This document shows positions 2,431-26,829 of a DNA stretch of 32,000 bases, one piece after another. Source of the stretch: Pseudodesulfovibrio mercurii. GTDB lineage: Bacteria; Desulfobacterota; Desulfovibrionia; Desulfovibrionales; Desulfovibrionaceae. Under the pieces are notes generated by a model. It was not told the origin of the DNA. It did not search any database and saw only the letters and a program-made list of their open reading frames with translations. The position numbers were made by a program, and so were the translations under genes. Numbering within the stretch: the first letter of the stretch is position 1; every line of letters begins with the position of its first letter. Location: the NCBI RefSeq assembly GCF_000189295.2, contig NC_016803.1, forward strand, positions 1,530,001 through 1,562,000. Reading direction: 5' to 3'.

Positions 2431-2431
<1 letters not shown>

Positions 2432-8684: not shown

Positions 8685-8699
8685 CGGCAAGTGCCTTGA
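8685..8699 (+). promoter_or_regulatory. Candidate sigma54-type promoter upstream of the alcohol dehydrogenase (imperfect -12)
   Basis: CGGCAAGTGCCTTGA has GG and TTG at consensus spacing, but the -24 T and -12 C are not conserved (TTGA rather than TTGC). Confidence 0.3.
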
Positions 8700-8743
8700 T
8701 AGAGGATGCGCAAGACGATACAATCGAACCAAAGGACAATACC

Positions 8744-9886: not shown

Positions 9887-9887
9887 C

Positions 9888-11120: not shown

Positions 11121-11124
11121 GCCC

Positions 11125-12599: not shown

Positions 12600-13898
12600 T
12601 CACAACCCCACGTTCTTGAGGTCTTCGCCGAGGTATTCCCGCTCGTTTTCCCCCAGGATGCCGAGGGAGAGGCAGATGAGCGTCCACAGGTGGACCACGG
12701 GGAACCCGGCCTCGTAATGTTCGCTCAGATCATGAATCTGAGAATGGCAGTTGTGGCACGGGGCGATGCAGTAGTCGGCCTTGGTCCTGAGGATCTGGTT
12801 CAGCTTGATCCTCCCGTAGGCCCGCCGCTCCTCGGCGAACCCGGATTGCAGGAACCCGCCCCCGCCGCCGCAACAATAGTTGTTCGACTTGTTCGGCCAC
12901 ATGTCGATGAAGTTCTCCTCGCCGACCACGGACCTGACCACGAAGCGCAGGTCCTCGGCCACGGGGTCGTGCAGGGACTTGCGGACCAGCTGGCAGGGGT
13001 CCTGGACCGTGAAGGTCACGCCCAGGTCCTTGTTCCAGTCCGAATTGACCGGCAGTTTCCCCTCGCGAATCCACCTGGCGTACAGGCGGATGATGGACTC
13101 CATCTCGAAGCTGTGTTCGACGTTGAACCGTTGCAGTCCGGCCCGGACCGCGTAGAATTCGTGTCCTCACTCCGTATTGAGCCAGACCTTGCACCCGAGG
13201 TCCTCGACCGCCGCGGCCTTGTTGCGGACCACCTTCTCCCAGGCCTCGTCGTCGGCCAGGAACATGCAGTAGTTTTCGGCGGCCCACCCCTTGGTGGAGT
13301 AGGTCCAGTCCGCGCCCACCAGGTTGAGGATCTTCCACAGCGGGACCATCTCGTCCGGCTCGGTGACCGGCTCGCGCGAGTTCTGGTTCAGGAAGTAGTA
13401 GGCCCCCTTGCGGTCGATGGAGACCTCGAGGTTCTCCATGCCCGGCTGGGTCTCGCGGACCTCTTCGAGCACGTCCTCGACCACGAACTTGAAGTCCTCG
13501 CTGGACGCGCCCATGGCGCTGTTGCCCGGCGTGGACAGGGCCTGCTCGCAGGAGCCGAGGATGCCCTTGGGGCGCTCCTCCCTGGGCCAGGACTGGCGGC
13601 AGTGGTAGACCAGCTGCGGGATGTCCACCTCCATGGGGCAGGCGTGGACGCAGCGCCGGCACATGGTGCACAGCCAGACCCACGGCGTGGACCGGATCTC
13701 CTCCTCCTGGCCGTAGAGGGCCAGGCGCAGGAATTTGCGAGGGTCCATGCCGTGCATGCCCGTGGCCGGGCAGCCCGAGGAACAGGCCCCGCAGGCCAGG
13801 CACATGTTCAGGTTGCCGCCCTCGGGCAGCAGTTCCTTGACCTTGTCCACCAATGCCGAGTGTTTCGGTTCGATCAGCAGTTGTGCCGCTTCGCCCAT
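12600..13898 (-). CDS. HdrD/DsrK-family Fe-S oxidoreductase (2x[4Fe-4S] ferredoxin domain + CCG domain), probable selenoprotein with in-frame UGA at 13167-13169
   Basis: ORFs 13167..13898 and 12600..13103 are in the same frame (offset 567 nt). Read-through gives ...KVWLNTE-[TGA]-GHEFYAVRAGLQRFNVEHSFEMESIIRLY... The N-terminal piece has CLACGACSSGCP and CTMCRRCVHACP. The C-terminal piece has the CCG motif DPC-X39-CCGGG...CHNC. AAAGGAG SD precedes ATG 13898. Confidence 0.75.
13133..13151 (-). promoter_or_regulatory. Candidate bacterial SECIS hairpin downstream of the in-frame UGA
   Basis: The mRNA reads UGA-GGACACGAAUUCUAC-GCGGUCCGGGCCGGACUGC. This forms a 7-8 bp stem (one G-U pair) with a G-rich apical loop. 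The stem starts 15 nt after UGA and the loop about 23 nt after it. Confidence 0.5.
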
Positions 13899-13952
13899 GG
13901 TTCACTCCTTTCGCGCATGGACGCCGCCGGACGTTCCCCGCGGCGCGCGTCG

Positions 13953-13980
13953 TTCCGGGGGCGACCGTCCGCCCCCGGAA
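13953..13980 (-). other. 11-bp GC hairpin between the tandem-USP gene and the HdrD-like gene
   Basis: ttccgggggcg (13953-13963), 6-nt loop, cgcccccggaa (13970-13980). No U-tract, so it may be an intra-operon processing, stability or attenuation element. Confidence 0.35.
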
Positions 13981-14001
13981 CCGGTTTCGTTTCAGCTCGG
14001 A

Positions 14002-14907
14002 TCAGGCCAGGGCCTCGGCCTCGACCACCTGGCCGGTCTGGTCGTACATCAGGCCGCAGCGCAGGTCGAAGTGCCGGTTGACGCTCATGGTCGGACACGG
14101 CGCGTTCAGGGCCACCTGGGTCACGGTGGAGCCCAGGAAGGCCTTTTCGGGATCGCGTTCCTTGGAGTGGTGGGCCATGATCAGCAGGTCCGCGTCGCCC
14201 TGGCGGGCCGTGCGCAGGATCTCCATGGCCGGTTCACCCATCTCCGCCCGGAAGGCGCAGTCGGCGATGCCGTCGAGGCGCTTGCCGTAGGCGTCCTCCA
14301 GCCGGGCCGTGCATTCGCTGCGGCCCGGTCCACCGGGCTCGGCCACGTGCATGACCACCAGGTTGGCCTTGTACTGACGGGCCATCTGCCCGCCGTAGGA
14401 CACGGCGCATTCGGCCTGGTCCGAGAAGTCCGTGGCGACCACGATGTTCGAGAACAGCGGCTCGCGGCAGGATATCTCCTTGTGAACGATCATGACCGGA
14501 CAGCGGGCCCGCTGGCTGACGCGCTCGAGCGTGCTGCCGGCCATGCCCCACATCTTGGCCCGCTTCTCCTCGTATTCCTTGGTGTGCGGCCCCATGACGA
14601 TGAGGTCCGAGTTCTTGGCCCGGGCCAGGCGCAGCAGTTCGTTGTGCGGGATGCCCGGCACGACCACGATCTGCGCGCTGGGGAGTTCCTTCAGGTATTC
14701 GTCGTACATCTCCCGGATCTTGTCCCCGAGCTGCTCGGTCTCGCCCGAGGGCGCGAGGTGTTCTATGGAGCCCCAGCCCTGTTCCATCCCGGCCACGTGG
14801 GTCAGGTAGAGCTTGGACTCGAACTTGACGGCGAACTCCACCGCCGCCTTGACCGCACAGGCATCGATGCCGGTGGGCGTGACGCCCACGATGATGTCCT
14901 TAAACAT
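14002..14907 (-). CDS. Tandem-domain universal stress protein (2x UspA), 301 aa
   Basis: Two USP repeats: MFKDIIVGVTPTG...LIVMGPH...GSTLERVSQRARCPVMIV and NIVVATDFS...LLIMAHHS...LGSTVTQVALNAPCPTMSV. An SD-like AAGGAAAGGGGG precedes the ATG, which lies 24 nt after the hdrB stop. Confidence 0.85.
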   Translation of the reverse strand: MFKDIIVGVTPTGIDACAVKAAVEFAVKFESKLYLTHVAGMEQGWGSIEHLAPSGETEQLGDKIREMYDEYLKELPSAQIVVVPGIPHNELLRLARAKNSDLIVMGPHTKEYEEKRAKMWGMAGSTLERVSQRARCPVMIVHKEISCREPLFSNIVVATDFSDQAECAVSYGGQMARQYKANLVVMHVAEPGGPGRSECTARLEDAYGKRLDGIADCAFRAEMGEPAMEILRTARQGDADLLIMAHHSKERDPEKAFLGSTVTQVALNAPCPTMSVNRHFDLRCGLMYDQTGQVVEAEALA

Positions 14908-14931
14908 GACTAGCCCCCTTTCCTTTCTGGT

Positions 14932-15861
14932 TTATCCGTTCAAACCCGCCGTTTCTTCCTCGTTTTCCTCCGCCATGGGCGCGGGCTCGGCCCACGCCCT
15001 GGTTGCAATGTCCCGTCTGACCTTCGGCGTCATGGTCAGGTTGTCCGCCAGCCGCATGTCCCGCTCGGTCAGCCCCATGGCCAGCCCCATGAGCTGGGTC
15101 AGGTAGAGCACGGGCACGGGCGTGCCGCCCGCCTTGCGCACCCTGGCCTGGTAGGCCTCCAGGTTCATCTGGCAGAGCGGGCAGACCGTGACGATGGCGT
15201 CGGCCCCGGCCGCGTCGTTCAGGATCTCGGCCACGGAGCGGATGGCCACCTCGGGGTGGCCGACCATGAGCGAGGCCCCGCAGCAGCGGTTGGCCATGTC
15301 CCAGTGGTGGACTTCGCCGCCCATGGCCTCGATGAACGGCTCCATGGAGACCGGCCTGCCAGGCTCGTCGAAGACCGGGTAGGGGCGCAGGATCTGGCAG
15401 CCGTAGTAGGGCGCGACCCGCATGCCCTGAAGCCCGTCGGTGATCTTCTGCTCCACGATCTTGGCGCCCACGTCGTTCTTGAGCACGTCGAGCAGGTGGC
15501 GGACCTTCACGTCGCCCCGGTAGTGCAGGCCGGAGGCGGCCAGGACCTCGTTGACCCGGCCGTGCAGATGCCGGTCGCCGACCACCTCGCGGTTGACCTT
15601 GAACAGGTTGAGGTAGCAGGCCGAACACGGGGCGAGGACGTCCAGGCCGCCCAGTTCCTGCTCCGCGATGGCCAGGTTGCGCGCGGGCAGGACGTGGTTC
15701 ATGAGCTTGCTGACCGGTTCGGCCGCGCTGGCCCCGCAGCAGGTCCAGTCCGGAATCTCGACCAGCTCGCAGCCGAGCCGCTCCAGGACCAGCCTCGTCG
15801 AGACGTCGAACTCGCGGGCGCTCTCGGTCAGCGAACATCCGGGATAATAGGCGTACTTCAT
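14932..15861 (-). CDS. hdrB: Heterodisulfide reductase subunit B (two CCG domains), 309 aa
   Basis: Real part of ORF 14932..16488, starting at MKYAYYPGCSL (ATG 15861). Motifs: DWTCCGAS...CSACYLNL and YYGCQIL...NRCCGAS...CPLCQMNL. An ATGA overlap joins it to hdrC. Confidence 0.9.
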   Translation of the reverse strand: MKYAYYPGCSLTESAREFDVSTRLVLERLGCELVEIPDWTCCGASAAEPVSKLMNHVLPARNLAIAEQELGGLDVLAPCSACYLNLFKVNREVVGDRHLHGRVNEVLAASGLHYRGDVKVRHLLDVLKNDVGAKIVEQKITDGLQGMRVAPYYGCQILRPYPVFDEPGRPVSMEPFIEAMGGEVHHWDMANRCCGASLMVGHPEVAIRSVAEILNDAAGADAIVTVCPLCQMNLEAYQARVRKAGGTPVPVLYLTQLMGLAMGLTERDMRLADNLTMTPKVRRDIATRAWAEPAPMAEENEEETAGLNG

Positions 15862-16427
15862 GACAGTCCCTCCATCTCGCGGGCCTTGGCGAACAGGGGC
15901 CGGAGCACGTCGCCCCGCCCCTTGCCCGGCATGTGCACCTTGCCCTTGCCGAGCATGCGCACGCCCAGCGGCAGGTAGGAGAGCGGCAGCATGGGGTCGC
16001 GGGCCTTGAGGAAGTACCGCTGCATCATGCTCGTCTCCTGGACCCGGCCGTGGACCTCCACGTCGTCCATGAAGGCCCGGTAGAAGGCCAGGTTCCTGCG
16101 CGCGTGGGGGCCGTCCGCGATCCCGGCCAGCCGCTTCAGGGCGGCCATGGCCGAGGTCAGCTTGAGCCCGCGCGGGCAGCGCAGCGTGCACATGTAGCAG
16201 GCCGAGCACATCCAGAAGGTCTTGCTTTCCAGTATCTTGTCGAGCATGCCGAACTGGATCATCCGCCACATGGCCCTCGGGGTGATGTCCATGGCGTGCC
16301 AGTTGGGACAGGAGGCCGTGCAGGTGCCGCACTGCATGCACGCCCCCACGGTTTCCCTCAACTCCTTGAGCACCAGTTGGTCGGCCTCCGAGGCCGGGCT
16401 CCACGTTTCCCTGACAGCTCCGTTCAT
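15858..16427 (-). CDS. hdrC: Heterodisulfide reductase subunit C (2x[4Fe-4S]), 189 aa
   Basis: CMQCGTCTASCP and CSACYMCTLRCP motifs. Size and position upstream of hdrB fit HdrC. Confidence 0.85.
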   Translation of the reverse strand: MNGAVRETWSPASEADQLVLKELRETVGACMQCGTCTASCPNWHAMDITPRAMWRMIQFGMLDKILESKTFWMCSACYMCTLRCPRGLKLTSAMAALKRLAGIADGPHARRNLAFYRAFMDDVEVHGRVQETSMMQRYFLKARDPMLPLSYLPLGVRMLGKGKVHMPGKGRGDVLRPLFAKAREMEGLS

Positions 16428-16462
16428 GATCCCTCACTCCTTGGCAATGTTGTTGCCCGGCC

Positions 16463-19400
16463 CTAGGCCGGTTCCTCCAGGGCCGCATCGATGACGGACA
16501 GCATCGGCCCGTCGTGGAACCCCTTGAGCACGGTGGCGCTGTTGGGGCAGACCGCGGCGCAGGCGCCGCACCCCTGGCAGAGAATCTCGTCCACGATGAT
16601 CTTCTCCTCGGTGGTGTCCACGGCCCGGGCCCCGTAGGGACAAGCGCTGACGCAGGCCTGGCACAGGGAGCACAGGGAGTGGCGCACCGTGGCCACCACG
16701 GTCTCGCGGGGGATCTTCTCGGCGTTGAGGATGCGCAGGGCCCGCTGGGCCGCCGCCTTGGCCGTGGCCACGGTCTCGCGCATGCGCCGGGGACCCAGGG
16801 CGATGCCGCACATGTAGATGCCCTGCTTGAGGAAATCCACGGGCCGCCACTTGAAGTCCGCCTCGCGGTAGAAGCCGTGCTCGTCCACCTCCACGTCGAA
16901 GACCTCGAGCAGGTCCTCCACGTCGTTGGGCTCGATGCCGCTGGCCAGGGACAGGATGTCCGGACGCAGCTCCACCTGGCCCCGCAGGATCGGGTCGTAC
17001 CCCCGGACCACGGGCCTGCCCTCCTCGAAGGTCACCTGGGGCACGGTCAGGTGGTCGTAGCGGATGAAGATGGCCCCCGCCTTGCGCGCCCTGGTGTAGT
17101 AGGTCTCCAGGAACCCCTGGGTCATGATGTCGCGGTAGAAGACGTAGATGGGCAGGTCCGGGTTGCGCTCCTTGAGGGCGAGCACGTTCTTGAGCATCTC
17201 CGGGCAGCAGACCTTGCTGCAATAGGTCCGGTCCTCGCCGTCGTTGCGCCAGCACTGGATCATGACCACCGAGGAGAGGGCCTTGGCGTCGAGCCGGCCG
17301 GTGGCCAGCTGCTCCTCCAGGGCCAGGTGGGTCATGACCGACTTGTGCACACACAGGCCGGACTCGTAGACCTTGGCCTCGTGCCCGCCCGTGGCCAGGA
17401 TGGTCACCGCGTGCTCCAGGGGGAAGACCCCCCGCGGGCTGGCGATGGCCGAGCGGAAGTGGCCCGCGCTGCCCCTTGAGAGGACCACGCGCGAATCCTT
17501 GAAGACCTTGATGTTCGGGTGCTTCTCCACCTGGGCGATGAGCTCCTCCATGTAGGCGTGCGGGTCGGTGCCGTCCAGCTGGGTATGCAGCCGCATGGCC
17601 GTGCCGCCGAGCTCCTCCTCGGCCTCCACCAGGCAGACCCCGTAGCCCTGGTCCGCGATGGACATGGCGGCGACCATGCCCGCCAGGCCGCCGCCGACCA
17701 CCAGGGCCGAGCGGACCACGTCCACGGTCACGGCCGGGCCGGACGGGTCCGCGCCCTGCAACCGGGCCACGGCCGTGGCCAGGGAGGCGTATATCTCGCG
17801 CTCCACGCGGCCGTCGCCGTCCCCGCCCACCGTGGCGGTGTAGATGTCCACCACGTCCATGAGCGCGGGGTTCAGGCCGATGGTCCGGCCCAGCTCCTTG
17901 AGCCTGGGGATGTAGGCGTAGGGCATGCACGCCCCGATGAGAATACGGTTGGGCTTGTACTCCAGGGCCGCCGCCTCGATGTCCTTCCAGCCCTGCGGGG
18001 TGCAGGCGCTGCCCACGCGCATGACCTTGCAGACCGAATGGACCCGCTGCATGCGCTCGGCCAGGTCGTCCAGGTCCACGGCCTGCTCCAGGGTCGGGCA
18101 GGAGGTGCAGACCGTGACCAGGGTCCGCGCCGGGTCCCTGGACACGTCCGGGTAGGACGGTTCGGGCTCGCCCTCGATGCCCGCCAGGACGTCGTAGGCC
18201 TTGATGATCCGCGAGGCGGCCTGGGCCGCGGCCCCGGCGTGGATGACCGACTCGGAGATGTCGCGGGGTTCGCCGAAGGCCCCGGCCGCGAACACGCCCA
18301 CGCGACTGGTCCGCTCGGGCCGGTACGGCAGGGTGTCCACGAAGCCCCACTCGTTCAGGTCCACGCCCATGGTCAGGGCGAACTTGTCCGTGCCCCTGGG
18401 CGGCCGCGCCCCGGCGGCCAGGACGACCATGTCGAATTCCTCGGCAATCAGCTCGCCCGCGTCGTTCAGATATTCGAGCTTCAGCCCCTTGCCGTCGTCG
18501 GCGGCCAGGACCGTGTGCGGACGGCTGCGCACGAAGCGCACGCCGTGCTTCTTCTCGGCATCGACCCGGTAGCGCTGGTACTCCTTGCCCGAGGTGCGCA
18601 TGTCCATGTAGAAGATGGTCGCATCCAGGCCCTCGCCCGCGACCTTCTTGGCCAGCAGGGCCTCCTTGATGGAGAACATGCAGCAGATGCCGGAACAGAA
18701 GTCCGCATGCTTGTGCACGTCGCGCGAGCCCACGCATTGCAGCCAGGCGATGCGTCTGACCGGCTCGCCGTCGGATCGTTGCAGCCTGCCGCCCGTGGGC
18801 CCGGTGCCCGAGAGCAGCCGCTCGAACTCCACGGCGGTGAGCACGCCCGGATGGGCGTAGGCCCAGACGTCCGCCCCGCCCTCGGGGTCCATGTCCGGGG
18901 TGTAGCAGTCGAAGCCCCCGGCCAGGACCACGGCCCCGACCTCGAGCTTGACCGTGGAGTCCGAGAGGATGCGCACGTAGAGCTTGTCGAGCCAGGGCAC
19001 GAAGCGCTTCCGCCTCAGCGGCTTGACCAGGTATTCGCGCGCGCCCTGCATGACCAGGTCCGCGGCCGCCTCCTCGCTCCCCGGATCGGCCAGGACGACC
19101 ACGGGCAGGTCGGGCCTGAGCTCCCTGGCGCGGGTCAGGACCCGTTCCGCATCCATGTCGTTCAGCCCCATGCCCAGCAGGAGCAGCCCCACGGGCTCCT
19201 CCGAGGCGAGCCGGTCCACGGCCTCGCGTCCGCTCTGCGCGAAGTGCAGCGGGAAGTTCTGCTCCTTGAGCTCCGCCTCCATCATCGCCTTCACGTCCGG
19301 GTCGCGGTCGGCCACCAGGATGTGGAAGTCCCTGCGATCCTCGAACTTGAAGTCGATGGCCCCGGTGGGGCAGGCCTCGTGGCACTTCCAGCAGCGGATG

Positions 19401-19891
19401 CAGTTGTCCAGGTCCAGCACGTAGTGGTTGGGGATGGCGTAGGGCACGGGCAGGTGCACGGCCGTGCGCTCGGTCAGCCCGGCGTTGAACTCGCTGGGCA
19501 CGCGCACCGGGCAGACCTCGGCGCACCGGCCGCAGCTGATGCACTTGGCCGGGTCGATGAGCGTGGACTTGCGCTTGAGGGAGAGCAGGAACTTGCCCGG
19601 TTCGCCCTCCAGGGTCTCCACCTCGGTGGACAGCATGAGGTCGATGTTGTCGTGGAACAGCCCCTTGCGCAGACAGTACTGGCTGGAGGAGTCGCGCGAC
19701 ATCAGCGGGAGCATGCGGCACATGCCGCAGTGGTCCGTGGGGAACTGGTGGTCCAGCTGGGCGAGTATCCCGCCGTGGCTGGGCCTGCGGTCGATGAGGG
19801 CCACCTTGTGCCCGGTGACGGCCAGGTCCAGGGCCGCGCGGATGCCGCCGATGCCCGCTCCGACCACCAATGCGCCGTATTGCTTTCTCAT
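16463..19891 (-). CDS. Giant double HdrA-like flavo-iron-sulfur protein (QmoA-like half with inserted receiver-like domain + complete HdrA-like half), 1142 aa
   Basis: ORF 16463..19903. ATG 19891 is preferred because the TTG GAG GAC codons supply the GGAGGA SD. Half 1: GALVVGAGIGG, FPTDHCGMCRMLP, and an inserted ferredoxin CISCGRCAEVCP...CIRCWKCHEACP. The mid-protein segment LVTVCTSCPT...SACTPQG...LIGACMPYAY mirrors the HdrA N-domain. Half 2: SALVVGGGLAGM...CSKVCC..., ending with C-terminal CSLCQACVSACP...CQGCGACAAVCP. Confidence 0.85.
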   Translation of the reverse strand: MRKQYGALVVGAGIGGIRAALDLAVTGHKVALIDRRPSHGGILAQLDHQFPTDHCGMCRMLPLMSRDSSSQYCLRKGLFHDNIDLMLSTEVETLEGEPGKFLLSLKRKSTLIDPAKCISCGRCAEVCPVRVPSEFNAGLTERTAVHLPVPYAIPNHYVLDLDNCIRCWKCHEACPTGAIDFKFEDRRDFHILVADRDPDVKAMMEAELKEQNFPLHFAQSGREAVDRLASEEPVGLLLLGMGLNDMDAERVLTRARELRPDLPVVVLADPGSEEAAADLVMQGAREYLVKPLRRKRFVPWLDKLYVRILSDSTVKLEVGAVVLAGGFDCYTPDMDPEGGADVWAYAHPGVLTAVEFERLLSGTGPTGGRLQRSDGEPVRRIAWLQCVGSRDVHKHADFCSGICCMFSIKEALLAKKVAGEGLDATIFYMDMRTSGKEYQRYRVDAEKKHGVRFVRSRPHTVLAADDGKGLKLEYLNDAGELIAEEFDMVVLAAGARPPRGTDKFALTMGVDLNEWGFVDTLPYRPERTSRVGVFAAGAFGEPRDISESVIHAGAAAQAASRIIKAYDVLAGIEGEPEPSYPDVSRDPARTLVTVCTSCPTLEQAVDLDDLAERMQRVHSVCKVMRVGSACTPQGWKDIEAAALEYKPNRILIGACMPYAYIPRLKELGRTIGLNPALMDVVDIYTATVGGDGDGRVEREIYASLATAVARLQGADPSGPAVTVDVVRSALVVGGGLAGMVAAMSIADQGYGVCLVEAEEELGGTAMRLHTQLDGTDPHAYMEELIAQVEKHPNIKVFKDSRVVLSRGSAGHFRSAIASPRGVFPLEHAVTILATGGHEAKVYESGLCVHKSVMTHLALEEQLATGRLDAKALSSVVMIQCWRNDGEDRTYCSKVCCPEMLKNVLALKERNPDLPIYVFYRDIMTQGFLETYYTRARKAGAIFIRYDHLTVPQVTFEEGRPVVRGYDPILRGQVELRPDILSLASGIEPNDVEDLLEVFDVEVDEHGFYREADFKWRPVDFLKQGIYMCGIALGPRRMRETVATAKAAAQRALRILNAEKIPRETVVATVRHSLCSLCQACVSACPYGARAVDTTEEKIIVDEILCQGCGACAAVCPNSATVLKGFHDGPMLSVIDAALEEPA
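18968..19327 (-). other. CheY-like receiver (pseudo-receiver) domain inserted in the HdrA-like protein
   Basis: ORF-track residues ~193-312 read FHILVADRDPD...VGLLLLGMGLNDMDA...LPVVVLADPGS...GAREYLVKPL. This is a receiver-like b1/b3/b4/b5 pattern with the conserved Lys (KPL). Gly (codon 19172-19174) sits where the phospho-acceptor Asp is expected, and Ala where Thr/Ser is expected. Confidence 0.6.
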
Positions 19892-19907
19892 TTTGTCCTC
19901 CAATGAA

Positions 19908-21038
19908 TCAGGCCATGTGCGAAACCGCGTCCTGGAACTCGTCTTCCTTGAAGACCGACAGCGGCGGGGCCTCGTCCAGGCTGCGGCCCGGCACGTAGTC
20001 GAAACTCTCCTGGGTGCGCGCGGCCACGGTGCGGAACAGCTCCATGACCGGGATGTCGTTGGGGCAGGCGTTGGAACACTGGCCGCAGCCCACGCAGGCC
20101 ATGGACATGTGGGCCATGCGCGTGAGGTGGTAGAAGACCGTGTCCGTGGGCATCTTCAGCGAGCCCTTGCGCTTGGCCCAGCCCATGTACTGCCACGGCT
20201 TGTGCTCGAACACGTCGGTGTTGAAGACGCACTCCTTGCAGTAGCAGACCGGGCAGGCCACCCGGCAGTTGTAGCAGTTGACGCAGGAGGCCAGGTACTC
20301 GGCCAGGTCGGTCAGGGTGCCGGTGACCGCCCGGGTGCGCTCGAACATCTCGTCCCGGTTGGCGGTGCGCACCTCGATCATGGCCTTGAGCGCCTCGTCG
20401 CGGCCGCCGCCCGCCTCGGCCTCGGGCAGCCCCAGGCTGAGGAGCAGGGACTCGCCGCGCGGGCTGGAGGCCGTGACCGGAATGTGCCCGGACAGGTCCG
20501 CCCCGGCCAGGCCGAGGACGATGTCCGCGTTCTCCGGGGCCGGATGCTCGCAGGCCCGGCAGGCCGAGGCGATGTCCGCCCCGCCGTTGCCCACCTGCCT
20601 GTGGAAGTCCATGGTGGCCTCGAAGGGATCGCGGTCGCCCAGAAACGCCTTGTACCCGGTGTTGTCGAAGGCCCCCATGCAGTCCAGGCCGACCAGGATG
20701 ATGTCGTCGATGGAACCCTGGTTGAGCTTGACCAGCTCCACGAAGGCGCGGATTTCGCACGGCCGCAGGACCGCGGCGATGCGCTCGCCCGACTGCCCTC
20801 TGGTGAGCCGGGCCAGGAGCTTGGCGCTGTTCATGGGAAATGCCGGGGCCAGCGGGTCCGCTCCGGAGAGCTGCTCCGGGTCCGTGACCAGGGTCGGCAT
20901 GGGGATGCCCTTGCCGAACAGGTGCATGGGCACCAGCACCCCGCCGATGCTCTCGTTCTCCATCAGGCCGCGCAGGAACCCCTGCACCGCCGCAATCGGG
21001 TTGCCCCCGTCGATCTGGATCTTCGCCGTGGTTGCCAT
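19908..21038 (-). CDS. FrhB/FdhB-like (F420 hydrogenase/dehydrogenase beta-family) Fe-S flavoprotein, 376 aa
   Basis: N-terminal pattern IGGVLVPMH...AAVLRPCEIRAFVEL...ILVGLDCMG. C-terminal Cys clusters CVNCYNCRVACPVCYC and CVGCGQCSNACP. The family call is by eye. Confidence 0.6.
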   Translation of the reverse strand: MATTAKIQIDGGNPIAAVQGFLRGLMENESIGGVLVPMHLFGKGIPMPTLVTDPEQLSGADPLAPAFPMNSAKLLARLTRGQSGERIAAVLRPCEIRAFVELVKLNQGSIDDIILVGLDCMGAFDNTGYKAFLGDRDPFEATMDFHRQVGNGGADIASACRACEHPAPENADIVLGLAGADLSGHIPVTASSPRGESLLLSLGLPEAEAGGGRDEALKAMIEVRTANRDEMFERTRAVTGTLTDLAEYLASCVNCYNCRVACPVCYCKECVFNTDVFEHKPWQYMGWAKRKGSLKMPTDTVFYHLTRMAHMSMACVGCGQCSNACPNDIPVMELFRTVAARTQESFDYVPGRSLDEAPPLSVFKEDEFQDAVSHMA

Positions 21039-21055
21039 AGCTCGCCTCCCGCGCC

Positions 21056-21481
21056 CTAGATCACGGCCATGGAACGCGCTTCCATGGGGCCGAGTTCTCT
21101 GATTTCGTTGATGAAGTTATTGACCGTCGCGGCAAACTCGTTGCCTTCGCTCGCCCCCACCCAGGTCAGCTTGACCCGCTCCTTTTCGATGCCGAACTGG
21201 GGCAGAATCTCGTTCAGGAGCTTGACCCGCCGCCGGGCCTTGTAGTTGCCGTTGATGTAGTGGCAGTCACCGGGATGGCAGCCCGAGACCAGGACCCCGT
21301 CCGCCCCGGAGAGCAGGGACTTGACGATGTACTTGGGGTCCACCATGCCGGTGCACATCATGCGCACCATGCGCAGGTTGGGCTGCTGGATCATGCGCGA
21401 GGTCCCGGCCAGGTCCGCCGCCGTGAAGGTGCACCAGTTGCAGACAAAGGCCAGGATGGTCGGTTCGAACTCGTTACTCAT
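21056..21481 (-). CDS. mvhD: MvhD/FlxD-like (methyl-viologen-reducing hydrogenase delta subunit family) protein, 141 aa
   Basis: ILAFVCNWCTFTAADLAG...RMMCTG...VLVSGCHPGDCHY is the characteristic MvhD Cys pattern. It overlaps the hdrA end by 8 nt. Confidence 0.85.
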   Translation of the reverse strand: MSNEFEPTILAFVCNWCTFTAADLAGTSRMIQQPNLRMVRMMCTGMVDPKYIVKSLLSGADGVLVSGCHPGDCHYINGNYKARRRVKLLNEILPQFGIEKERVKLTWVGASEGNEFAATVNNFINEIRELGPMEARSMAVI

Positions 21482-23510
21482 GACGTGCCTCCTCGACGAC
21501 CCGCGTAACCGGGATGTCCACCGGATGCGCCCCGCCCGCCTCGGGCGGCAGCCAGCCGGGGACCATCCCTAGCAGTCCGTCTATTTCGTTGAATATCTGC
21601 GTCTCGTTGAAGTGCTTGATCTGGGCCGCGCCGCTCGGGCAGTACCCGGCGCAGGAGCCGCATCCCTTGCACATGGCCTCGTTGATCACGGCCACGTTGC
21701 GCCGCTCGTCGAACTCGATGGCCGAGTAGGCGCACAGTCCCACGCAGACCCGGCAGCCCACGCAGATGTCCGGGTTGATCCAGGACGTGGTCGGGGAGAT
21801 GGAGACCGTGCCCTTGGCCGCCAGGGCCAGGGCCTGGGCCGCGCCGCCCGAGGCGTGGGAGACCGCGTCCGGGATGTCCTTGGGTCCCTGGCAGGTGCCG
21901 GCCAGGAAGACCCCGTCCGTGGCAGTGGAGACCGGCCCGAGCTTGGGGTGCTCTTCCAGGAAGAAGCCGTCCGAGCCCTGGGCGATGCCGAAGACGCGGG
22001 CCACCTCGGTGGCGTCGGGCCGGGGCTCCATGGCCGTGCACAGGATGACCATGTCCACGGGCAGGCGCACGTTGACCCCGAGCAGGGTGTCCTCGCCCAC
22101 CACCACGAGCCTGCCGTCCTCCTCCACCACCTCGGCGGGCCGCCCCCGGATGAAGGTCACGCCCTCGTCCTGGACCCGCCGGTAGAACTCCTCGTACCCC
22201 TTCCCGAAGCAACGCATGTCGATGTAGAAATTGTAGACCTTGGTGTCGTGGCCGACCTTGTCCTTGATCAGATGGTCGTACTTCAGCGCGTACATGCAGC
22301 AGGTCCGCGAACAGTACTCATGGTAGTTCTTGTCGCGGGAGCCCACGCAGTGGATGATGGCCACGGACTCGGGCTTCCTGCCGTTCTTCATGACGATCTT
22401 GCCCTCGGTGGGGCCGACCGCGTTGTTCAGCCGCTCGAACTGGAGGGCGGTGTAGACCTCGTCGTACCGGCCGAAGCCGTATTCGCGCATGGGCGTCGGG
22501 TCCATGGTGTCGTAGCCCGTGGCCAGGACGATGGAACCCACGTGGAAGACCTCGCGGGACTCCTTCATGTCGTAGTCGATGGCCCCGGTGGGACAAATTT
22601 TCTGACACACGCCGCACTTGCCCTTGGTGATCATCTTGCAGGCGTCGCCGTCGATGACCGGGGTGTTGGGCACGGCCTGGGGCGAGTTGCGGTAGATGGC
22701 CTTGCGGAAACCCAACCCCTCGTTGAACTCGCTGATGGCCTTGGTCGGGCACTTCTCCAGGCAGGCCCCGCAGCCGGTGCAGACGTCTTCCTTCACGTAG
22801 CGCGGCTTGTGCCGGACCGTGACCGTGTAGTTGCCCACGAACCCGGTGACCTCCTCCACCTCGGACCAGGTCATCAGGTTGATGTTCGGCTCCTGGCTGA
22901 CCGCGACCATCTTGGGCGTTGAGATACAGGCCGCGCAGTCGAGCGTGGGGAAGGTCTTGTCGAACTGGGCCATATGCCCGCCGATGGACGGGCTCTTCTC
23001 CACCAGGTGGACCTTGTGCCCGGACTTGGCGATGTCGAGCGCGGCCTGGATGCCAGCGATGCCCGCGCCCACGACCATGACGTCGGGCAGGACCCCGACC
23101 TCGCGCGAGTAGAGCTTCTGGTGGTCGGCCACCCGCTCCACCGCCGCCTCGACGATGTGCCGGGCCTTGGCCGTGGCCTCATCGGGATCGGCCGTGGTCC
23201 AGGAGCAGTGCTCGCGGATGCAGCAGTGCTGCATGAGGTACGGATTGAGCCCGGCCCGGGCGCACGCCTTCTGGAAGGTCTTCTCGTGCAGCCGGGGCGA
23301 ACAGGAGGCGACCACCACGCGATCCAGGCCGTACTGCCGGATGTCCCGGATGATCATCTCCTGGCCGGGGTCCGAGCACATGAACTGGTAGTCGCGGGAG
23401 ACGACCACGTCCTTGAGACCGCCCGCAAACTCGGCCACCCCCTCGCAGTCCACCTTGCCCGCGATGTTGGACCCGCAATGACAGACATAGACACCGATCT
23501 TTCTGGACAT
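21474..23510 (-). CDS. hdrA: Heterodisulfide reductase subunit A, 678 aa
   Basis: ORF 21474..23528. ATG 23510 has GGAGGA 6 nt upstream. N-domain IGVYVCHCGSNIAG; FAD fold VMVVGAGIAGIQAALD; FPTLDCAACI; inserted ferredoxin CTGCGACLEKCP...CGVCQKICP; C-terminal CVGCRVCVGLC...CKGCGSCAGYCP. Confidence 0.9.
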   Translation of the reverse strand: MSRKIGVYVCHCGSNIAGKVDCEGVAEFAGGLKDVVVSRDYQFMCSDPGQEMIIRDIRQYGLDRVVVASCSPRLHEKTFQKACARAGLNPYLMQHCCIREHCSWTTADPDEATAKARHIVEAAVERVADHQKLYSREVGVLPDVMVVGAGIAGIQAALDIAKSGHKVHLVEKSPSIGGHMAQFDKTFPTLDCAACISTPKMVAVSQEPNINLMTWSEVEEVTGFVGNYTVTVRHKPRYVKEDVCTGCGACLEKCPTKAISEFNEGLGFRKAIYRNSPQAVPNTPVIDGDACKMITKGKCGVCQKICPTGAIDYDMKESREVFHVGSIVLATGYDTMDPTPMREYGFGRYDEVYTALQFERLNNAVGPTEGKIVMKNGRKPESVAIIHCVGSRDKNYHEYCSRTCCMYALKYDHLIKDKVGHDTKVYNFYIDMRCFGKGYEEFYRRVQDEGVTFIRGRPAEVVEEDGRLVVVGEDTLLGVNVRLPVDMVILCTAMEPRPDATEVARVFGIAQGSDGFFLEEHPKLGPVSTATDGVFLAGTCQGPKDIPDAVSHASGGAAQALALAAKGTVSISPTTSWINPDICVGCRVCVGLCAYSAIEFDERRNVAVINEAMCKGCGSCAGYCPSGAAQIKHFNETQIFNEIDGLLGMVPGWLPPEAGGAHPVDIPVTRVVEEARHE

Positions 23511-23535
23511 GTCCCATCCTCCATGCAATCCGTGG

Positions 23536-23805
23536 TCAACGGGTGGGTTTGCCGCTGGTCAGTTCCAGGGTCAGTTCGCCCACCAGCTTCTTGAGTTCCT
23601 CGTTCTCGGCCGCCAGCTCCATGTCGTTCGGAGCCAGGGGCGGCTTCTCGAACACGCGGTAGCTGTTCTCCAGAAAATGCCCCCGCCACTTGTAGTACTG
23701 GCCCGGCCGCAGATCATTGGACCGGCAGAGATCGTTGACGCACTCGCCCATCAATCCCGCCAGCACGATCCTGGCCTTGGTCTTGGAATCCCACTTTCTT
23801 CTCAT
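23536..23805 (-). CDS. Solo IS3-family OrfA-like HTH protein (transposase_8-like), 89 aa, with no orfB
   Basis: MRRKWDSKTKARIVLAGLMGECVNDLCRSNDLRPGQYYKWRGHFLE...NEELKKLVGELTLEL resembles IS3/IS911 OrfA (HTH + leucine zipper). hdrA starts 25 nt downstream and no DDE orfB or terminal repeats were seen. Confidence 0.6.
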   Translation of the reverse strand: MRRKWDSKTKARIVLAGLMGECVNDLCRSNDLRPGQYYKWRGHFLENSYRVFEKPPLAPNDMELAAENEELKKLVGELTLELTSGKPTR

Positions 23806-24002: not shown

Positions 24003-24017
24003 TCAAAATGCGTGCCG
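24003..24017 (-). promoter_or_regulatory. Candidate sigma54 (-24/-12) promoter for the OrfA-like/hdr cluster (imperfect -12)
   Basis: The minus strand reads CGGCACGCATTTTGA. GGCACG is perfect and the spacing is consensus, but the -12 is TTGA instead of TTGC. It lies about 200 nt upstream of ATG 23805. Confidence 0.4.
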
Positions 24018-24106
24018 TTTCAAACATAGAGAGGAATATGAAGATGATAATGGATAGACATGTTCAATACGGCAGCATAAACCCCATGAAAAACGGAGAT
24101 TTTTTG

Positions 24107-24263
24107 TCTCGTCGCGCAAGACGGTTCTTGCCCGGCAAGACGACGGGAGTCGGCCAGGAGAGTCGAGAATCATTTTCATCGGGAGTTTCAGCCCCCTTGC
24201 GCAAGGCCCGACTCTCCTTGTCTCCAGAGGATTTTCGGCCGAAAACGGTCTTGCGCGACGAGA
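24107..24263. promoter_or_regulatory. Array of TCTTGC/GCAAGA dyads (candidate enhancer-binding-protein UAS)
   Basis: A perfect 16-nt inverted repeat: tctcgtcgcgcaagac (24107-24122) and gtcttgcgcgacgaga (24248-24263). Palindromes: GCAAGA-cggt-TCTTGC (24116-24131), TCTTGCC-c-GGCAAGA (24126-24140), CCTTGCGCAAGG (24195-24206). All lie 100-250 nt upstream of the candidate promoter. Confidence 0.5.
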
Positions 24264-24395
24264 TACCAGAGCGGCGAGGGCGGAAATCCAGAGACATTTT
24301 TTCAAGGATTTCACAGACCAAAAGGCATTGCCCACGAACCGAAAATTATGCTACGTGTGAGCCATCATTCATGCTGCAAGGGGAGGGGGCACCCC

Positions 24396-25896: not shown

Positions 25897-26613
25897 ATGC
25901 ATGACTTTTTCGCCCCGCACCTGCTGGACCTGCTCTGCCTGGCCGTGTCGGCCGGGCTGTTCACGTTCTACCACCTGTACGTGCGCCACAAGCTCAAGGC
26001 CAACCCGACCTATTCGCTGTACGGGGCCACGACCATCGCCCGCACCGCCTGGGTGGTCAACGTCATGGAGGAGAAGAACGACATCCTGGCCGTGCAGACC
26101 CTGCGCAACTCGACCATGGCCGCCACCTTCCTGGCCTCCACCTCCATCCTCCTGGCCGTGGGGCTGCTGACCCTGTCCGGCCAGGCCGACAAGCTGGGCG
26201 AGACCTGGCACGCCATGAACCTCTTCGGCTCCCGCGCCGAGAGCACCATCACCCTCAAGCTGCTGATCATCCTCGGCAACCTGTTCATCGCCTTCTTCAA
26301 CTTCTCCTTCGCCATCCGGCTGTTCAGCCACGTGGGCTTCCTGATCAACACCCCGCCCGAGGAAGGAAGCTACGGTGCGTCCATCACCTTCGTGGCCATG
26401 GAGCTGAACAAGGCGGGCGGCTATTTCCACATGGGCATGCGCGCCTACTACTTCCTGGTGCCGCTCATCTTCTGGCTGTTCAGCCCCCTGTTCATGCTCG
26501 CGGCCACGGTCACACTGGTGCTGATCATGTCCCGGATCGAAAGGACCCCGGACCTGGACTGCGAATATCTCGGCACCCTGTTCCACAATTCCTGCACCCT
26601 GCCGCGCAAATAG
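25897..26613 (+). CDS. Multi-pass membrane protein, DUF599-like
   Basis: ORF 25888..26613. ATG 25897 is preferred because GGAGGG abuts ATG 25888. Several hydrophobic helices. The ILAVQTLRNSTMAATFLAS pattern recalls DUF599, a family call made from memory only. Confidence 0.55.
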   Translation: MHDFFAPHLLDLLCLAVSAGLFTFYHLYVRHKLKANPTYSLYGATTIARTAWVVNVMEEKNDILAVQTLRNSTMAATFLASTSILLAVGLLTLSGQADKLGETWHAMNLFGSRAESTITLKLLIILGNLFIAFFNFSFAIRLFSHVGFLINTPPEEGSYGASITFVAMELNKAGGYFHMGMRAYYFLVPLIFWLFSPLFMLAATVTLVLIMSRIERTPDLDCEYLGTLFHNSCTLPRK

Positions 26614-26829
26614 CCCCAGCGTCCGGCCTGCCATCCTCCCCCCGCCGGGGAAAACCGTCACCCCGGGCAGGGACGTACGGCAGCCGCAGCCTGTTGCCGA
26701 ACGGGATTTCGGCTCGGAAATTTCACGGATTAGTCTGTTGAACTATACAATAAAACACGTTAGGTTTCGTTCCGTAATTACTGGCAGCATCGGCAAGGCC
26801 GGACAAACAGCAAGACCTGCGGTACGGAA

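What the first reader, a model, noticed from the sequence alone, without database searches (positions are those of the whole stretch)
12600..23805. Non-canonical Hdr-type cluster with two HdrA-family proteins and no recognisable electron-donor module
The tightly packed minus-strand gene order is OrfA-like, hdrA, mvhD-like, FrhB/FdhB-like, giant double HdrA-like, hdrC, hdrB, tandem USP, Sec-HdrD-like. Several starts overlap or abut (8-nt, ATGA and 16-24 nt gaps). It differs from the FlxABCD-HdrABC arrangement known next to adh genes in Desulfovibrio vulgaris: no FlxA-type NAD(P)H module and no hydrogenase or formate dehydrogenase is present. It contains three HdrA-like FAD modules and two different disulfide-reductase catalytic units (HdrBC and HdrD-like). 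The FrhB-like protein is the only candidate entry flavin site. Proximity to the ADH and AOR genes suggests a role in alcohol/aldehyde-linked electron bifurcation or confurcation, but the donor, the acceptor and the reason for two catalytic ends are open.
Basis: partly seen in the sequence, partly recalled or inferred. Interest (0 to 1): 0.7.

Follow-up and report, generated by a model that had tools for sequence, protein, structure and literature searches.

The report
Conserved two-flavoprotein Hdr operon in sulfate reducers
This is a real nine-gene operon, conserved in sulfate-reducing bacteria, that combines two known kinds of electron-splitting (bifurcating) enzyme module with a fossil signalling domain and a selenoprotein; the gene set was already drawn in 2009 and has archaeal and benzoate-degrading relatives, but nobody has tested what it does.

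Summary
Window 12600-23805 (minus strand) carries nine tightly packed genes: orfA-like HTH, hdrA, mvhD, fdhB-like, a 1142-aa fused double HdrA, hdrC, hdrB, tandem USP and a selenocysteine HdrD-like gene. The window is Pseudodesulfovibrio mercurii ND132. The order is conserved across Pseudodesulfovibrio, Desulfomicrobium and other Desulfovibrionaceae. The core hdrA-mvhD-fdhB-giant also occurs in Desulfobacterales.

The claim that no donor module is recognisable is only partly right. The FrhB-like protein is an FdhB/ElpB-type protein (PDB 7BKB_E and 8RVU_E, TM 0.74). Together with MvhD it matches the hydride-carrier donor arm of the archaeal Fdh-Hdr and Elp-Hdr complexes.

The giant protein is a BamE/"type II HdrA"-style fused HdrA dimer. 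The receiver is canonical and paired with histidine kinases in Desulfobacterales. Here it is degenerate, with the phospho-Asp replaced by Gly.

The TGA in the HdrD-like gene is a genuine Sec codon: it is conserved in 10/10 orthologs, followed by a hairpin, and a paralog has Cys there. A conserved sigma-54-like promoter and a divergent activator precede the operon. The ADH/AOR link is not conserved.

I classify it as a new variant of a known kind. Donor, acceptor and subunit make-up remain untested.

The parts
24348..25805 (+). Divergent sigma-54-dependent response regulator (REC, AAA+, HTH). It is the likely activator of the operon.
   Evidence: Pfam Sigma54_activat E 4e-64 plus Response_reg. 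NtrC/AtoC-like over aa 17-482. Found divergently upstream of the cluster in 15 related loci.
24106..24141 (.). Inverted repeats (TCTTGCC-G-GGCAAGA and a flanking arm). Candidate activator binding sites about 100-125 bp upstream of the promoter element.
   Evidence: the repeat finder I1/I4. AAGAC...GTCTTG blocks are conserved in the alignment of 12 upstream regions.
24003..24017 (-). Sigma-54-type -24/-12-like element CGGCACGCATTTTGA. GG and TTG are in register; the -12 reads GA instead of GC.
   Evidence: This is the most conserved block in 12 aligned upstream regions from several genera. It is not an exact consensus match.
23536..23805 (-). orfA-like small HTH protein (89 aa), first gene of the operon.
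   Evidence: HTH_Tnp_1 E 2e-9. Present upstream of hdrA in all 14 Desulfovibrionales-type loci with upstream sequence, and exactly 89 aa in the 7 orthologs extracted. 64-92% aa identity, dN/dS 0.16-0.43.
21474..23510 (-). Canonical (type I) HdrA with N-terminal cluster domain, FAD/TrxR core, inserted ferredoxin domain and C-terminal ferredoxin domain.
   Evidence: Full-length match to 5ODC_A, E 8e-213. Best NCBIfam hit is HdrA2, below cutoff. Motifs.
21056..21481 (-). MvhD/ElpC-type [2Fe-2S] adaptor. It overlaps hdrA by 8 nt.
   Evidence: FlpD E 2e-52. Five Cys.
19908..21038 (-). FdhB/ElpB-like protein (predicted flavin site) with 15 conserved Cys, enough for about four [4Fe-4S] clusters.
   Evidence: PDB sequence hits 9T1S_M, 7BKB_E and 8RVU_E at E 6e-32 to 8e-29. 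AF2 pLDDT 81; Foldseek TM 0.74 to FdhB and ElpB versus about 0.45 to FrhB/Fsr/HCAR. All 15 Cys invariant in 27 homologs.
16463..19891 (-). Fused double HdrA (BamE/'type II' style), 1142 aa. Half 1 has FAD, a Cys pair, the inserted ferredoxin domain and REC. Half 2 has an N-domain-like segment, FAD and the C-terminal ferredoxin domain.
   Evidence: Four collinear stretches against 5ODC_A. Cys map invariant in 23 orthologs. AF2 pTM 0.80. NCBI name 'response regulator receiver modulated heterodisulfide reductase subunit A'.
19001..19321 (-). Receiver (REC) domain inserted in the giant protein. It is degenerate here.
   Evidence: Response_reg E 1.4e-11. (beta-alpha)5 fold at pLDDT 86-92. Phospho-Asp position is Gly, the acidic pair is not DD, and Thr is replaced by Ala. 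Desulfobacterales orthologs are canonical.
15858..16427 (-). HdrC (two [4Fe-4S] clusters).
   Evidence: CoB_CoM_SS_C E 2e-22.
14932..15861 (-). HdrB with two complete CCG domains. ATGA overlap with hdrC.
   Evidence: CCG x2, E 7e-21. CoB_CoM_SS_B E 2e-50.
14002..14907 (-). Tandem universal stress protein.
   Evidence: Usp x2, E 2e-36. Conserved in this position in 16 loci.
13952..13981 (.). GC-rich 12-bp hairpin in the 103-nt usp-hdrD gap. It has no U-tract in the operon direction.
12600..13898 (-). Selenocysteine-containing HdrD-like protein (HmcF/TmcB/DsrK/BamD type): two cubane motifs, a degenerate first CCG domain carrying Sec, and a complete second CCG domain.
13167..13169 (-). In-frame UGA read as selenocysteine (NTE-U-G).
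   Evidence: TGA conserved in 10/10 orthologs from three lineages. Aligns with Cys of PDCGGG in the Cys paralog.
13133..13151 (-). SECIS-like 8-bp hairpin starting 18 nt after the UGA.
   Evidence: Kept in 10/10 orthologs, with one compensatory pair and no broken pairs.

Best explanation
The region is one sigma-54-controlled operon of Pseudodesulfovibrio mercurii. It most likely encodes a soluble, multi-flavin, flavin-based electron-bifurcating or confurcating complex assembled from two module types that have been solved elsewhere.

Module 1 is an Elp/Fdh-Hdr-like donor arm. The predicted flavin of the FdhB/ElpB-like subunit exchanges a hydride with a two-electron carrier. That carrier is probably NAD(P)H or another non-F420 carrier in this organism. 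Electrons then pass through its four Fe-S clusters and the MvhD [2Fe-2S] cluster into an HdrA flavin.

Module 2 is a BamE/'type II HdrA'-like fused HdrA dimer. It acts as its own heterodimeric partner, with one N-domain cluster completed by the Cys pair of the other half, one inserted ferredoxin domain as the low-potential exit, and one C-terminal ferredoxin domain as the entry.

High-potential electrons would leave through HdrBC, a true two-CCG disulfide reductase whose likely substrate is DsrC or another thiol/disulfide. They could also leave through the BamD-like Sec-HdrD protein, which may serve a protein acceptor rather than a disulfide. Low-potential electrons would go to ferredoxin or a partner enzyme.

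The REC insert is a regulatory handle. It is phosphorylatable in Desulfobacterales, where kinases are co-encoded. In Desulfovibrionales it has decayed to a pseudo-receiver, and control appears to sit at transcription (sigma-54 activator, orfA-like HTH) and perhaps with the USP.

Shown: gene content, synteny, folds, cofactor motifs, Sec, REC status.
Inferred: which subunits assemble together, direction of electron flow, donor and acceptors.
For: - Operon: overlaps and short gaps, no sigma-70-like promoter and no sense-strand terminator inside.
- Promoter: conserved -24/-12-like element and inverted repeats, with a conserved divergent activator.
- Synteny: full order in 14 loci and the hdrA-mvhD-fdhB-giant core in all 25.
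- Donor arm: FdhB-like hits only the FdhB/ElpB chains of Hdr supercomplexes (E about 1e-29 to 1e-32), with TM 0.74. ElpB/ElpC function is described in PMC12350162.
- Giant protein: collinear HdrA pieces and invariant Cys sets with complementary N-domain and Cys pair. Lys/Glu are present in both halves.
- BamE comparison: same domain order, and Cys59-Cys62 pair, as the BamE cryo-EM description (bioRxiv 10.64898/2026.04.10.717634).
- Archaeal parallel: type II HdrA clusters with FdhB, MvhD and HdrBC, sometimes plus type I HdrA and HdrD (PMC12054007).
- REC: canonical residues and adjacent kinases in 9 Desulfobacterales loci; degenerate in all Desulfovibrionales orthologs.
- Sec.
Against: - There is no biochemical, expression or genetic data for this cluster in any organism.
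- F420, the carrier used by every characterised FdhB/ElpB, is not known in Desulfovibrionales. I could not check the genome for its biosynthesis genes.
- FAD binding by the FdhB-like protein is inferred from fold only.
- ElpA/FdhA, present in all solved donor arms, is absent.
- Subunit partnerships are guessed from gene order and co-occurrence.
- My 25 loci were selected through the FdhB-like protein, so 'always together' is partly circular.
- The -12 element reads GA/GT rather than GC.
- In BamE the second flavin is non-bifurcating, so three 'bifurcating' flavins may be an over-count.
Confidence: 0.6

Rival explanations
1. There are two separate enzymes that are merely co-transcribed. One is an Elp-like HdrA-MvhD-FdhB(-HdrBC) bifurcating heterodisulfide reductase. 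The other is a BamDE-like pair (giant protein plus Sec-HdrD) with its own donor and acceptor.
For: - Canonical HdrA has every domain needed to homodimerise as in 5ODC.
- The giant protein is self-complementary and so needs no HdrA partner.
- In L012 the Sec-HdrD gene sits directly next to the giant gene and no hdrCB follows.
- bamD and bamE are partners in the class II benzoyl-CoA reductase.
Against: - There is only one MvhD and one FdhB-like gene for two HdrA-type proteins.
- The four core genes co-occur in all 25 loci, in unchanged order.
- Archaeal clusters also add a type I HdrA and HdrD to type II HdrA, read there as coupled bifurcations.
Confidence: 0.25
2. The complex serves alcohol/aldehyde metabolism. 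Its low-potential exit would feed the neighbouring AOR-family tungsten enzyme, as BamE feeds BamBC. Or it would run in reverse, taking ferredoxin reduced by AOR.
For: - An AOR (4942-7086) and an Fe-ADH (8696-9886) lie within 7 kb.
- In the class II benzoyl-CoA reductase the inserted ferredoxin domain of the fused HdrA feeds an AOR-type enzyme.
- Flx-Hdr sits next to adh genes in other Desulfovibrio (PMC4287179).
- The legend of the D. autotrophicum figure of hdr loci lists an Aor5.
Against: - AOR and ADH are on the other strand, behind their own kinase/regulator pair and a large sigma-54 activator.
- No AOR or ADH homolog lies within 10 kb of the cluster in any of the 25 other loci.
- There is no BamC-like ferredoxin next to the AOR.
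- The ADH scores best as regulatory ErcA-like.
Confidence: 0.12
3. The FdhB-like subunit docks a formate dehydrogenase catalytic subunit encoded elsewhere. The complex would then be a formate-driven Hdr as in Methanococcus and Methanospirillum.
For: - The closest solved relatives are FdhB chains of Fdh-Hdr complexes.
- In D. autotrophicum two of the four hdr loci with fdhB also carry fdhA.
- NCBI and JGI label the protein 'formate dehydrogenase (subunit beta)'.
Against: - There is no FdhA or molybdopterin gene in the window or in any of the 25 loci.
- Elp-Hdr shows that the FdhB-type subunit works without catalytic FdhA.
Confidence: 0.08
4. The products form mainly a redox-sensing or regulatory device (REC, USP, HTH, sigma-54 regulator) rather than a catabolic energy-coupling enzyme.
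For: Signalling parts are unusually dense around the cluster: REC insert, tandem USP, orfA-like HTH, and adjacent kinases and regulators in every lineage.
Against: All cofactor ligands of three HdrA modules, HdrBC, MvhD and FdhB-like are strictly conserved across orders. That fits a working electron-transfer enzyme.
Confidence: 0.05

Closest known systems
ElpABC-HdrABC of Methanothermobacter marburgensis (PDB 8RVU/8RVV/8RVY; PMC12350162) and FdhAB-MvhD-HdrABC of Methanospirillum hungatei (7BKB)
   Same: An FdhB/ElpB-type flavo-Fe-S subunit, an MvhD/ElpC adaptor and HdrABC. The window protein matches ElpB/FdhB full length (E about 1e-29 to 1e-32, TM 0.74). HdrA is about 712 bits to archaeal HdrA.
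   Different: There is no ElpA/FdhA subunit. The host is a bacterium not known to make F420, so the hydride carrier is unknown. A second, fused HdrA, a USP and an HdrD-like selenoprotein are added.
BamDEF module of class II benzoyl-CoA reductase, Geobacter metallireducens (bioRxiv 10.64898/2026.04.10.717634)
   Same: A fused HdrA dimer with the same order: TrxR1 with a Cys pair at about 59/62 and the inserted ferredoxin domain, then TrxR2 and the C-terminal ferredoxin domain. Also an MvhD-like adaptor and an HdrD-like subunit whose distal non-cubane site is degenerate. An AOR-family gene lies nearby.
   Different: - A REC domain of about 130 aa is inserted after the ferredoxin domain.
- The second flavin keeps the Lys where BamE has Gln (inferred by offset).
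- Input is FdhB-like instead of BamGHI.
- MvhD is short and has no Sec.
- An extra canonical HdrA and HdrBC are present.
- There is no BamBC in the operon.
- The BamE sequence could not be aligned here.
Archaeal 'type II HdrA' clusters of ANME-2/3 and Methanosarcinales (PMC12054007; PMC9012536)
   Same: A fused double-TrxR HdrA co-located with HdrBC, MvhD and FdhB, sometimes plus a type I HdrA and HdrD. Both halves keep the Lys/Glu pair. N-domain and Cys197 are complementary between halves.
   Different: The archaeal clusters carry a non-catalytic molybdopterin (FdhA-like) subunit and use F420. No REC, USP or Sec-HdrD is reported. For ANME HdrA3/4 the published text gives the opposite order of the two halves, which I could not check on sequences.
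Desulfobacterium autotrophicum HRM2 hdr locus VIII (hdrL-mvhD-fdhB-hdrA4-hdrCB, hdrD2; PMC2702500)
   Same: Essentially the same gene set and order, and Sec-containing HdrD paralogs are noted there. The Desulfobacterales loci I fetched have the same HdrL (GltD-like insert) in place of HdrA.
   Different: It was described only as a genome map in 2009. No function, REC analysis or regulation was given. The window has plain HdrA rather than HdrL.
FlxABCD-HdrABC of Desulfovibrio vulgaris (Ramos et al. 2015, cited in PMC5296606; PMC4287179)
   Same: Soluble HdrABC plus an MvhD-like subunit in a sulfate reducer. There is loose proximity to an alcohol dehydrogenase gene.
   Different: There are no FlxA, FlxB or FlxC. 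The donor arm is FdhB-like and a second fused HdrA is present. Both systems co-exist in D. africanus.
QmoABC
   Same: Two HdrA-family flavoproteins work together.
   Different: There is no QmoC membrane subunit in the window. Best family scores go to HdrA2, not Qmo. Only the Desulfobacterales relatives carry a QmoC-like/HdrD fusion upstream.

Membership tests
FlxABCD-HdrABC | FlxA: NAD(P)H-binding flavoprotein subunit | tested here: not met
   No such domain in any of the nine products.
FlxABCD-HdrABC | FlxD (MvhD-like) plus HdrABC | tested here: met
   FlpD E 2e-52; HdrA, HdrB and HdrC hits.
Elp/Fdh-type Hdr donor arm | FdhB/ElpB-fold subunit with four Fe-S clusters | tested here: met
   E 6e-32 to 8e-29 to FdhB/ElpB chains. 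TM 0.74. All 15 Cys invariant.
Elp/Fdh-type Hdr donor arm | FAD bound and F420H2 used as hydride donor | not testable with these tools
   No ligand modelling is available. F420 biosynthesis genes lie outside the window.
Elp/Fdh-type Hdr donor arm | ElpA/FdhA (molybdopterin-fold) partner subunit | tested here: not met
   Absent from the window and from all 25 related loci.
Fused HdrA dimer (BamE / type II HdrA) | Two TrxR-FAD cores in one chain, each with its adjacent [4Fe-4S] motif | tested here: met
Fused HdrA dimer (BamE / type II HdrA) | Complementary halves: one N-domain cluster completed by the Cys pair of the other half, one inserted and one C-terminal ferredoxin domain | tested here: met
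   C59/C62, C599/C634/C659 and 2 x 8 ferredoxin Cys are invariant in 23 orthologs.
Fused HdrA dimer (BamE / type II HdrA) | Direct sequence or structure match to BamE (29QY) or an archaeal type II HdrA | not tested
   Neither sequence was available. The structures are not in the PDB copy searched.
Class II benzoyl-CoA reductase (BamB-I) | BamBC catalytic unit and BamGHI input encoded with BamDEF | tested here: not met
   Neither is in the operon. The AOR is separate, on the other strand, and has no BamC.
Two-component receiver domain | CheY-like (beta-alpha)5 fold | tested here: met
   Pfam E 1.4e-11. AF2 secondary structure, pLDDT 86-92.
Two-component receiver domain | Phospho-acceptor Asp, acidic pair, Thr/Ser and Lys | tested here: not met
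   The window has Gly at the Asp site, DR instead of DD, and Ala for Thr; only Lys is kept. All four are canonical in 9 Desulfobacterales orthologs.
Bacterial selenoprotein | Conserved in-frame UGA, downstream hairpin, and Cys homologs at the same site | tested here: met
Bacterial selenoprotein | selABCD machinery in the genome | not testable with these tools
   Not in the window. No tRNA was found in the window.
Sigma-54-dependent operon | GG-N10-GC promoter with an adjacent enhancer-binding protein | tested here: inconclusive
   The activator and upstream repeats are conserved. The promoter block is conserved, but its -12 reads GA/GT.
QmoABC | QmoC membrane haem-b/HdrC-like subunit | tested here: not met
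   None in the window.

The most novel reading that the evidence does not exclude
The operon builds a two-stage bifurcation machine. An Elp-like arm loads a canonical HdrA. A BamE-type fused HdrA, here with a Lys at both flavins, bifurcates a second time. This would reach potentials below ferredoxin for a difficult reduction, for example an AOR-type reduction. In addition, a two-component receiver domain is built into the flavoprotein itself. In Desulfobacterales a co-encoded kinase would then switch an electron-bifurcating enzyme by phosphorylation. The Desulfovibrionales copy, this window included, would be the fossil of that switch.
Probability: 0.15. Interest if true: 0.85.

Novelty: new variant of a known kind. 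Interest (0 to 1): 0.55.

Why it matters
Hdr-type bifurcating complexes set the energy budget of strict anaerobes. In sulfate reducers only Flx-Hdr has been studied.

This operon is widespread in Desulfovibrionales and Desulfobacterales. It joins the two most recently solved Hdr architectures (the Elp donor arm and the BamE fused dimer) in an organism that is cultivable and genetically tractable (ND132, from my own knowledge). It therefore offers three things:
- a practical route to test coupled bifurcation outside methanogens and benzoate degraders
- a way to find what an FdhB-type flavin uses when F420 is absent
- a test of whether a receiver domain can gate a bifurcating flavoprotein

It also adds a clean Sec/Cys pair at a CCG-motif position of an HdrD-type protein.

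Tried and rejected
- Rfam gathering scan and tRNA scan of the window found nothing. The SECIS evidence therefore rests on the ortholog comparison.
- The sigma-70 promoter scan found none inside the cluster. The terminator scan was at chance level.
- An exact sigma-54 consensus search did not flag the operon promoter. It emerged only from aligning upstream regions.
- Considered the OrfA-like gene as an IS3 remnant. Rejected: fixed length, conserved position, dN/dS below 0.45, no OrfB.
- Considered the HdrD-like gene as a pseudogene. Rejected by the conserved TGA and hairpin.
- Considered Flx and Qmo membership. Rejected.
- Considered a conserved ADH/AOR link. Rejected by synteny.
- Literature searches for a receiver-containing HdrA, or for this cluster in Pseudodesulfovibrio/ND132, found no paper that describes this cluster.
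- Pereira et al. 2011 is not held.
- A search on F420 biosynthesis in Desulfobacterota was uninformative.
- One search was wasted through badly chosen terms.
- Cluster-member names gave almost no taxonomy for the REC-less relatives. I therefore could not say which are archaeal or which is BamE.
- The Foldseek search with the giant model only returned single HdrA chains. It does not test the pseudo-dimer packing.

Full report
**Source and gene map.** The FrhB-like and giant proteins are 100% identical to proteins of Pseudodesulfovibrio mercurii, formerly Desulfovibrio desulfuricans ND132. The window is 64-69% G+C over the region, so many long spurious ORFs appear on both strands.

Domain searches single out nine minus-strand genes between 23805 and 12600. 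Three coordinates need refining:
- hdrA most likely starts at the ATG at 23510, behind a GGAGGA.
- The giant gene starts at the ATG at 19891. All orthologs begin MRKQYG, and the NCBI model is 1142 aa.
- hdrB starts at 15861 inside a longer ORF.

Junctions are an 8-nt overlap, an ATGA overlap, gaps of 16-35 nt, and one 103-nt gap before the last gene. That gap holds a strong hairpin with no U-tract in the sense direction. No sigma-70-like promoter is predicted inside the region.

**Conservation.** Scanning one genome per species with the FrhB-like protein returned 25 loci. Mapping all window proteins onto them gave the following:
- The full series is present in Pseudodesulfovibrio, Desulfomicrobium and other Desulfovibrionaceae. 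It runs: divergent sigma-54 regulator, orfA-like, hdrA, mvhD, fdhB-like, giant, hdrC, hdrB, usp2, HdrD-like.
- The core hdrA-mvhD-fdhB-giant is present in every locus, including Desulfobacterales MAGs and Desulfocicer vacuolatum.
- No AOR or ADH homolog lies within 10 kb in any locus. Only the two closest relatives share the kinase/regulator pair that separates the cluster from adh and aor in the window.

Protein searches show orthologs of the giant protein in Maridesulfovibrio, Desulfobaculum, Paucidesulfovibrio, Desulfocurvibacter africanus, Solidesulfovibrio, Desulfohalobium and others.

**Regulation.** Aligning twelve upstream regions reveals one strongly conserved block, CGGCACGCATnTTG(A/T). 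Its GG and TTG are spaced as in sigma-54 promoters, but its -12 dinucleotide is non-canonical. Inverted repeats lie about 100-125 bp further upstream. With the conserved divergent NtrC-type regulator, a sigma-54-dependent operon is the most economical reading. It is unproven.

The first gene is an 89-aa HTH_Tnp_1 protein. It has the same length in every ortholog examined and a dN/dS of 0.16-0.43. It is therefore a domesticated small HTH protein, not a decaying insertion sequence.

**The donor arm.**
- Against all PDB sequences, the FrhB-like protein matches only three FdhB-type chains from Hdr supercomplexes: 9T1S_M, 7BKB_E and 8RVU_E, at E 6e-32 to 8e-29. All other hits concern only its ferredoxin motif.
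- An AlphaFold model (pLDDT 81, pTM 0.84) superposes on FdhB and ElpB at TM 0.74. FrhB, Fsr and HCAR reach only about 0.4-0.47.
- All 15 cysteines are invariant in 27 homologs.
- In the Elp-Hdr complex, ElpB takes a hydride from F420H2 on its FAD. [quoted passage not shown]

So the cluster does contain a recognisable donor module. It lacks the ElpA/FdhA partner, and the hydride carrier is unknown.

In Desulfobacterales the hdrA gene is an HdrL form. It carries a GltD/NfnB-like NAD(P)H module inserted after the ferredoxin domain, and a QmoC-like/HdrD fusion lies upstream. NAD(P)H is therefore one substrate there. The FdhB-like flavin may serve a different carrier.

**The giant protein.** It aligns with archaeal HdrA in four collinear pieces:
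1. TrxR N-part plus inserted ferredoxin domain (aa 10-188)
2. The rest of TrxR1 (aa 318-514)
3. An HdrA N-terminal-domain-like segment (aa 595-687)
4. The end of TrxR2 plus the C-terminal ferredoxin domain (aa 1010-1125)

The cysteine sets invariant across 23 orthologs are:
- the pair at 59/62, which is the Cys197 region of HdrA
- eight in the inserted ferredoxin domain
- four next to each flavin
- three in the N-domain-like segment
- eight in the C-terminal ferredoxin domain

This predicts 2 FAD and seven [4Fe-4S] clusters. It also predicts a chain that is its own heterodimeric partner with a single mobile arm. The AlphaFold model has pTM 0.80.

The same logic was proposed for fused HdrA in ANME (PMC9012536) and for archaeal 'type II HdrA' (PMC12054007). 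The cryo-EM description of BamE matches it as well. BamE is a fused HdrA dimer with a Cys59-Cys62 pair and a bifurcating FAD with Lys280 in TrxR1. Its inserted ferredoxin domain is the low-potential exit, its C-terminal ferredoxin domain is the entry via the MvhD-like BamF, and its second FAD is non-bifurcating with Gln768.

In the window both flavin sites keep the Lys (K409 and K901, invariant). By offset, K901 would correspond to BamE Gln768. I could not align the sequences.

**The receiver domain.** Residues 191-297 are a CheY-like domain (Pfam E 1.4e-11; (beta-alpha)5 at pLDDT 86-92). It is inserted exactly at the end of the inserted ferredoxin domain.
- In nine Desulfobacterales orthologs all signature residues are canonical (VVDDE, LTDIKMPGMDG, TAYATVE, KPF). 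Histidine kinase and REC-kinase genes lie within a few kb downstream of the giant gene.
- In Desulfovibrionales the acidic pair and the Thr are lost throughout. The phospho-Asp is Gly or Ser in 12 of 25 diverse orthologs, including this one.

An exhaustive search of 1.8 billion representative proteins shows that the same fusion order is common without the insert. Most of the best 150 representatives are about 950-1060 aa and skip query residues about 190-310. About eight span the REC segment. Twenty-three are 1275-1532 aa, and the two of these that I tested carry a GltD-like module in that slot. The site is an insertion hot spot next to the ferredoxin-reducing clusters. A regulatory domain there could gate access.

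NCBI already names the protein 'response regulator receiver modulated heterodisulfide reductase subunit A'. I found no paper on it.

**The two CCG ends.** HdrB has two complete CCG motifs.

The HdrD-like protein has two cubane motifs, a complete C-terminal CCG domain, and a degenerate first CCG domain in which the TGA sits (NTE-U-G).
- The TGA is conserved in all ten orthologs from three lineages.
- It is followed by an 8-bp hairpin that is never broken and shows one compensatory change.
- It aligns with the Cys of PDCGGG in a 29%-identical paralog.
- That paralog replaces the Sec protein or accompanies it in other genomes.

The protein is therefore a genuine selenoprotein. In BamD the distal non-cubane site is also disrupted. 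BamD hands electrons to ETF rather than reducing a disulfide. Calling this protein a second disulfide reductase may thus be wrong.

**Comparison and verdict.** The gene set was drawn for D. autotrophicum locus VIII in 2009. It is paralleled by archaeal type II HdrA clusters that sometimes add a type I HdrA and HdrD. Its parts match Elp-Hdr and BamDEF. It fails the Flx, Qmo, Fdh and complete Bam membership tests.

It is best described as a bacterial variant that combines an Elp-like donor arm with a BamE-like fused HdrA, and adds a (pseudo)receiver, a USP, a small HTH protein and a Sec-HdrD. The carrier, the acceptors, the stoichiometry and the direction of electron flow are inferences.

Noticed in passing
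window 544-559 (-) and 89-516 (-): An exact sigma-54 consensus (TGGCACCGCCCTTGCT) lies 28 nt upstream of the ATG of a single-domain USP gene. A 974-aa REC/sigma-54 activator (1076-4000, minus strand) lies just upstream.
   Followed up: partly
window 8696-12471 (+): The Fe-ADH scores best as an ErcA-like 'regulatory' alcohol dehydrogenase (382 bits, below cutoff). It is followed directly by a PAS histidine kinase and a sigma-54 response regulator. This looks like an alcohol-sensing unit rather than a catabolic ADH.
   Followed up: partly
window 4942-8620 (+): The AOR-family protein is unusually long (714 aa, with an insertion relative to the Pfam C-domain). It is followed by a B12-binding radical SAM protein of unclear role.
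   Followed up: no
window about 26000-30000: G+C drops to 58-59%, against about 66% elsewhere. The stretch encodes a GT2 glycosyltransferase, an SMR/EamA-like small membrane protein and a GtrII-like glucosyltransferase. It may be an acquired glycan-modification island. Another USP gene lies at 29914-30468 (-).
   Followed up: no
L019 3395-9068; L022 6057-9536: In Desulfobacterales relatives, hdrA is an HdrL form with a GltD/NfnB-like NAD(P)H module of about 400 aa inserted after the ferredoxin domain. In L019 it is preceded by a 766-aa QmoC-like + HdrD-like fusion (HdrF type), which hints at a quinone link that the window lacks.
   Followed up: partly
L001/L002 about 17150-18460; L003, L006, L007 about 18350-19930: A Cys-containing HdrD paralog (29% identical) replaces the Sec-HdrD in the two closest relatives. 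It sits in tandem with it in others. The window has only the Sec form.
   Followed up: partly
window 13952-13981: A 12-bp GC-rich hairpin sits in the only long intergenic gap of the operon (usp-hdrD). It is not a sense-strand terminator by sequence. It may be a processing or stability element that sets the level of the selenoprotein.
   Followed up: no
proteins P0243, P0270, P0280, P0305: The slot after the inserted ferredoxin domain of fused double HdrA proteins is empty, or holds a REC domain, a GltD-like NAD(P)H module, or extra ferredoxin domains in different relatives. It is a modular insertion hot spot.
   Followed up: partly
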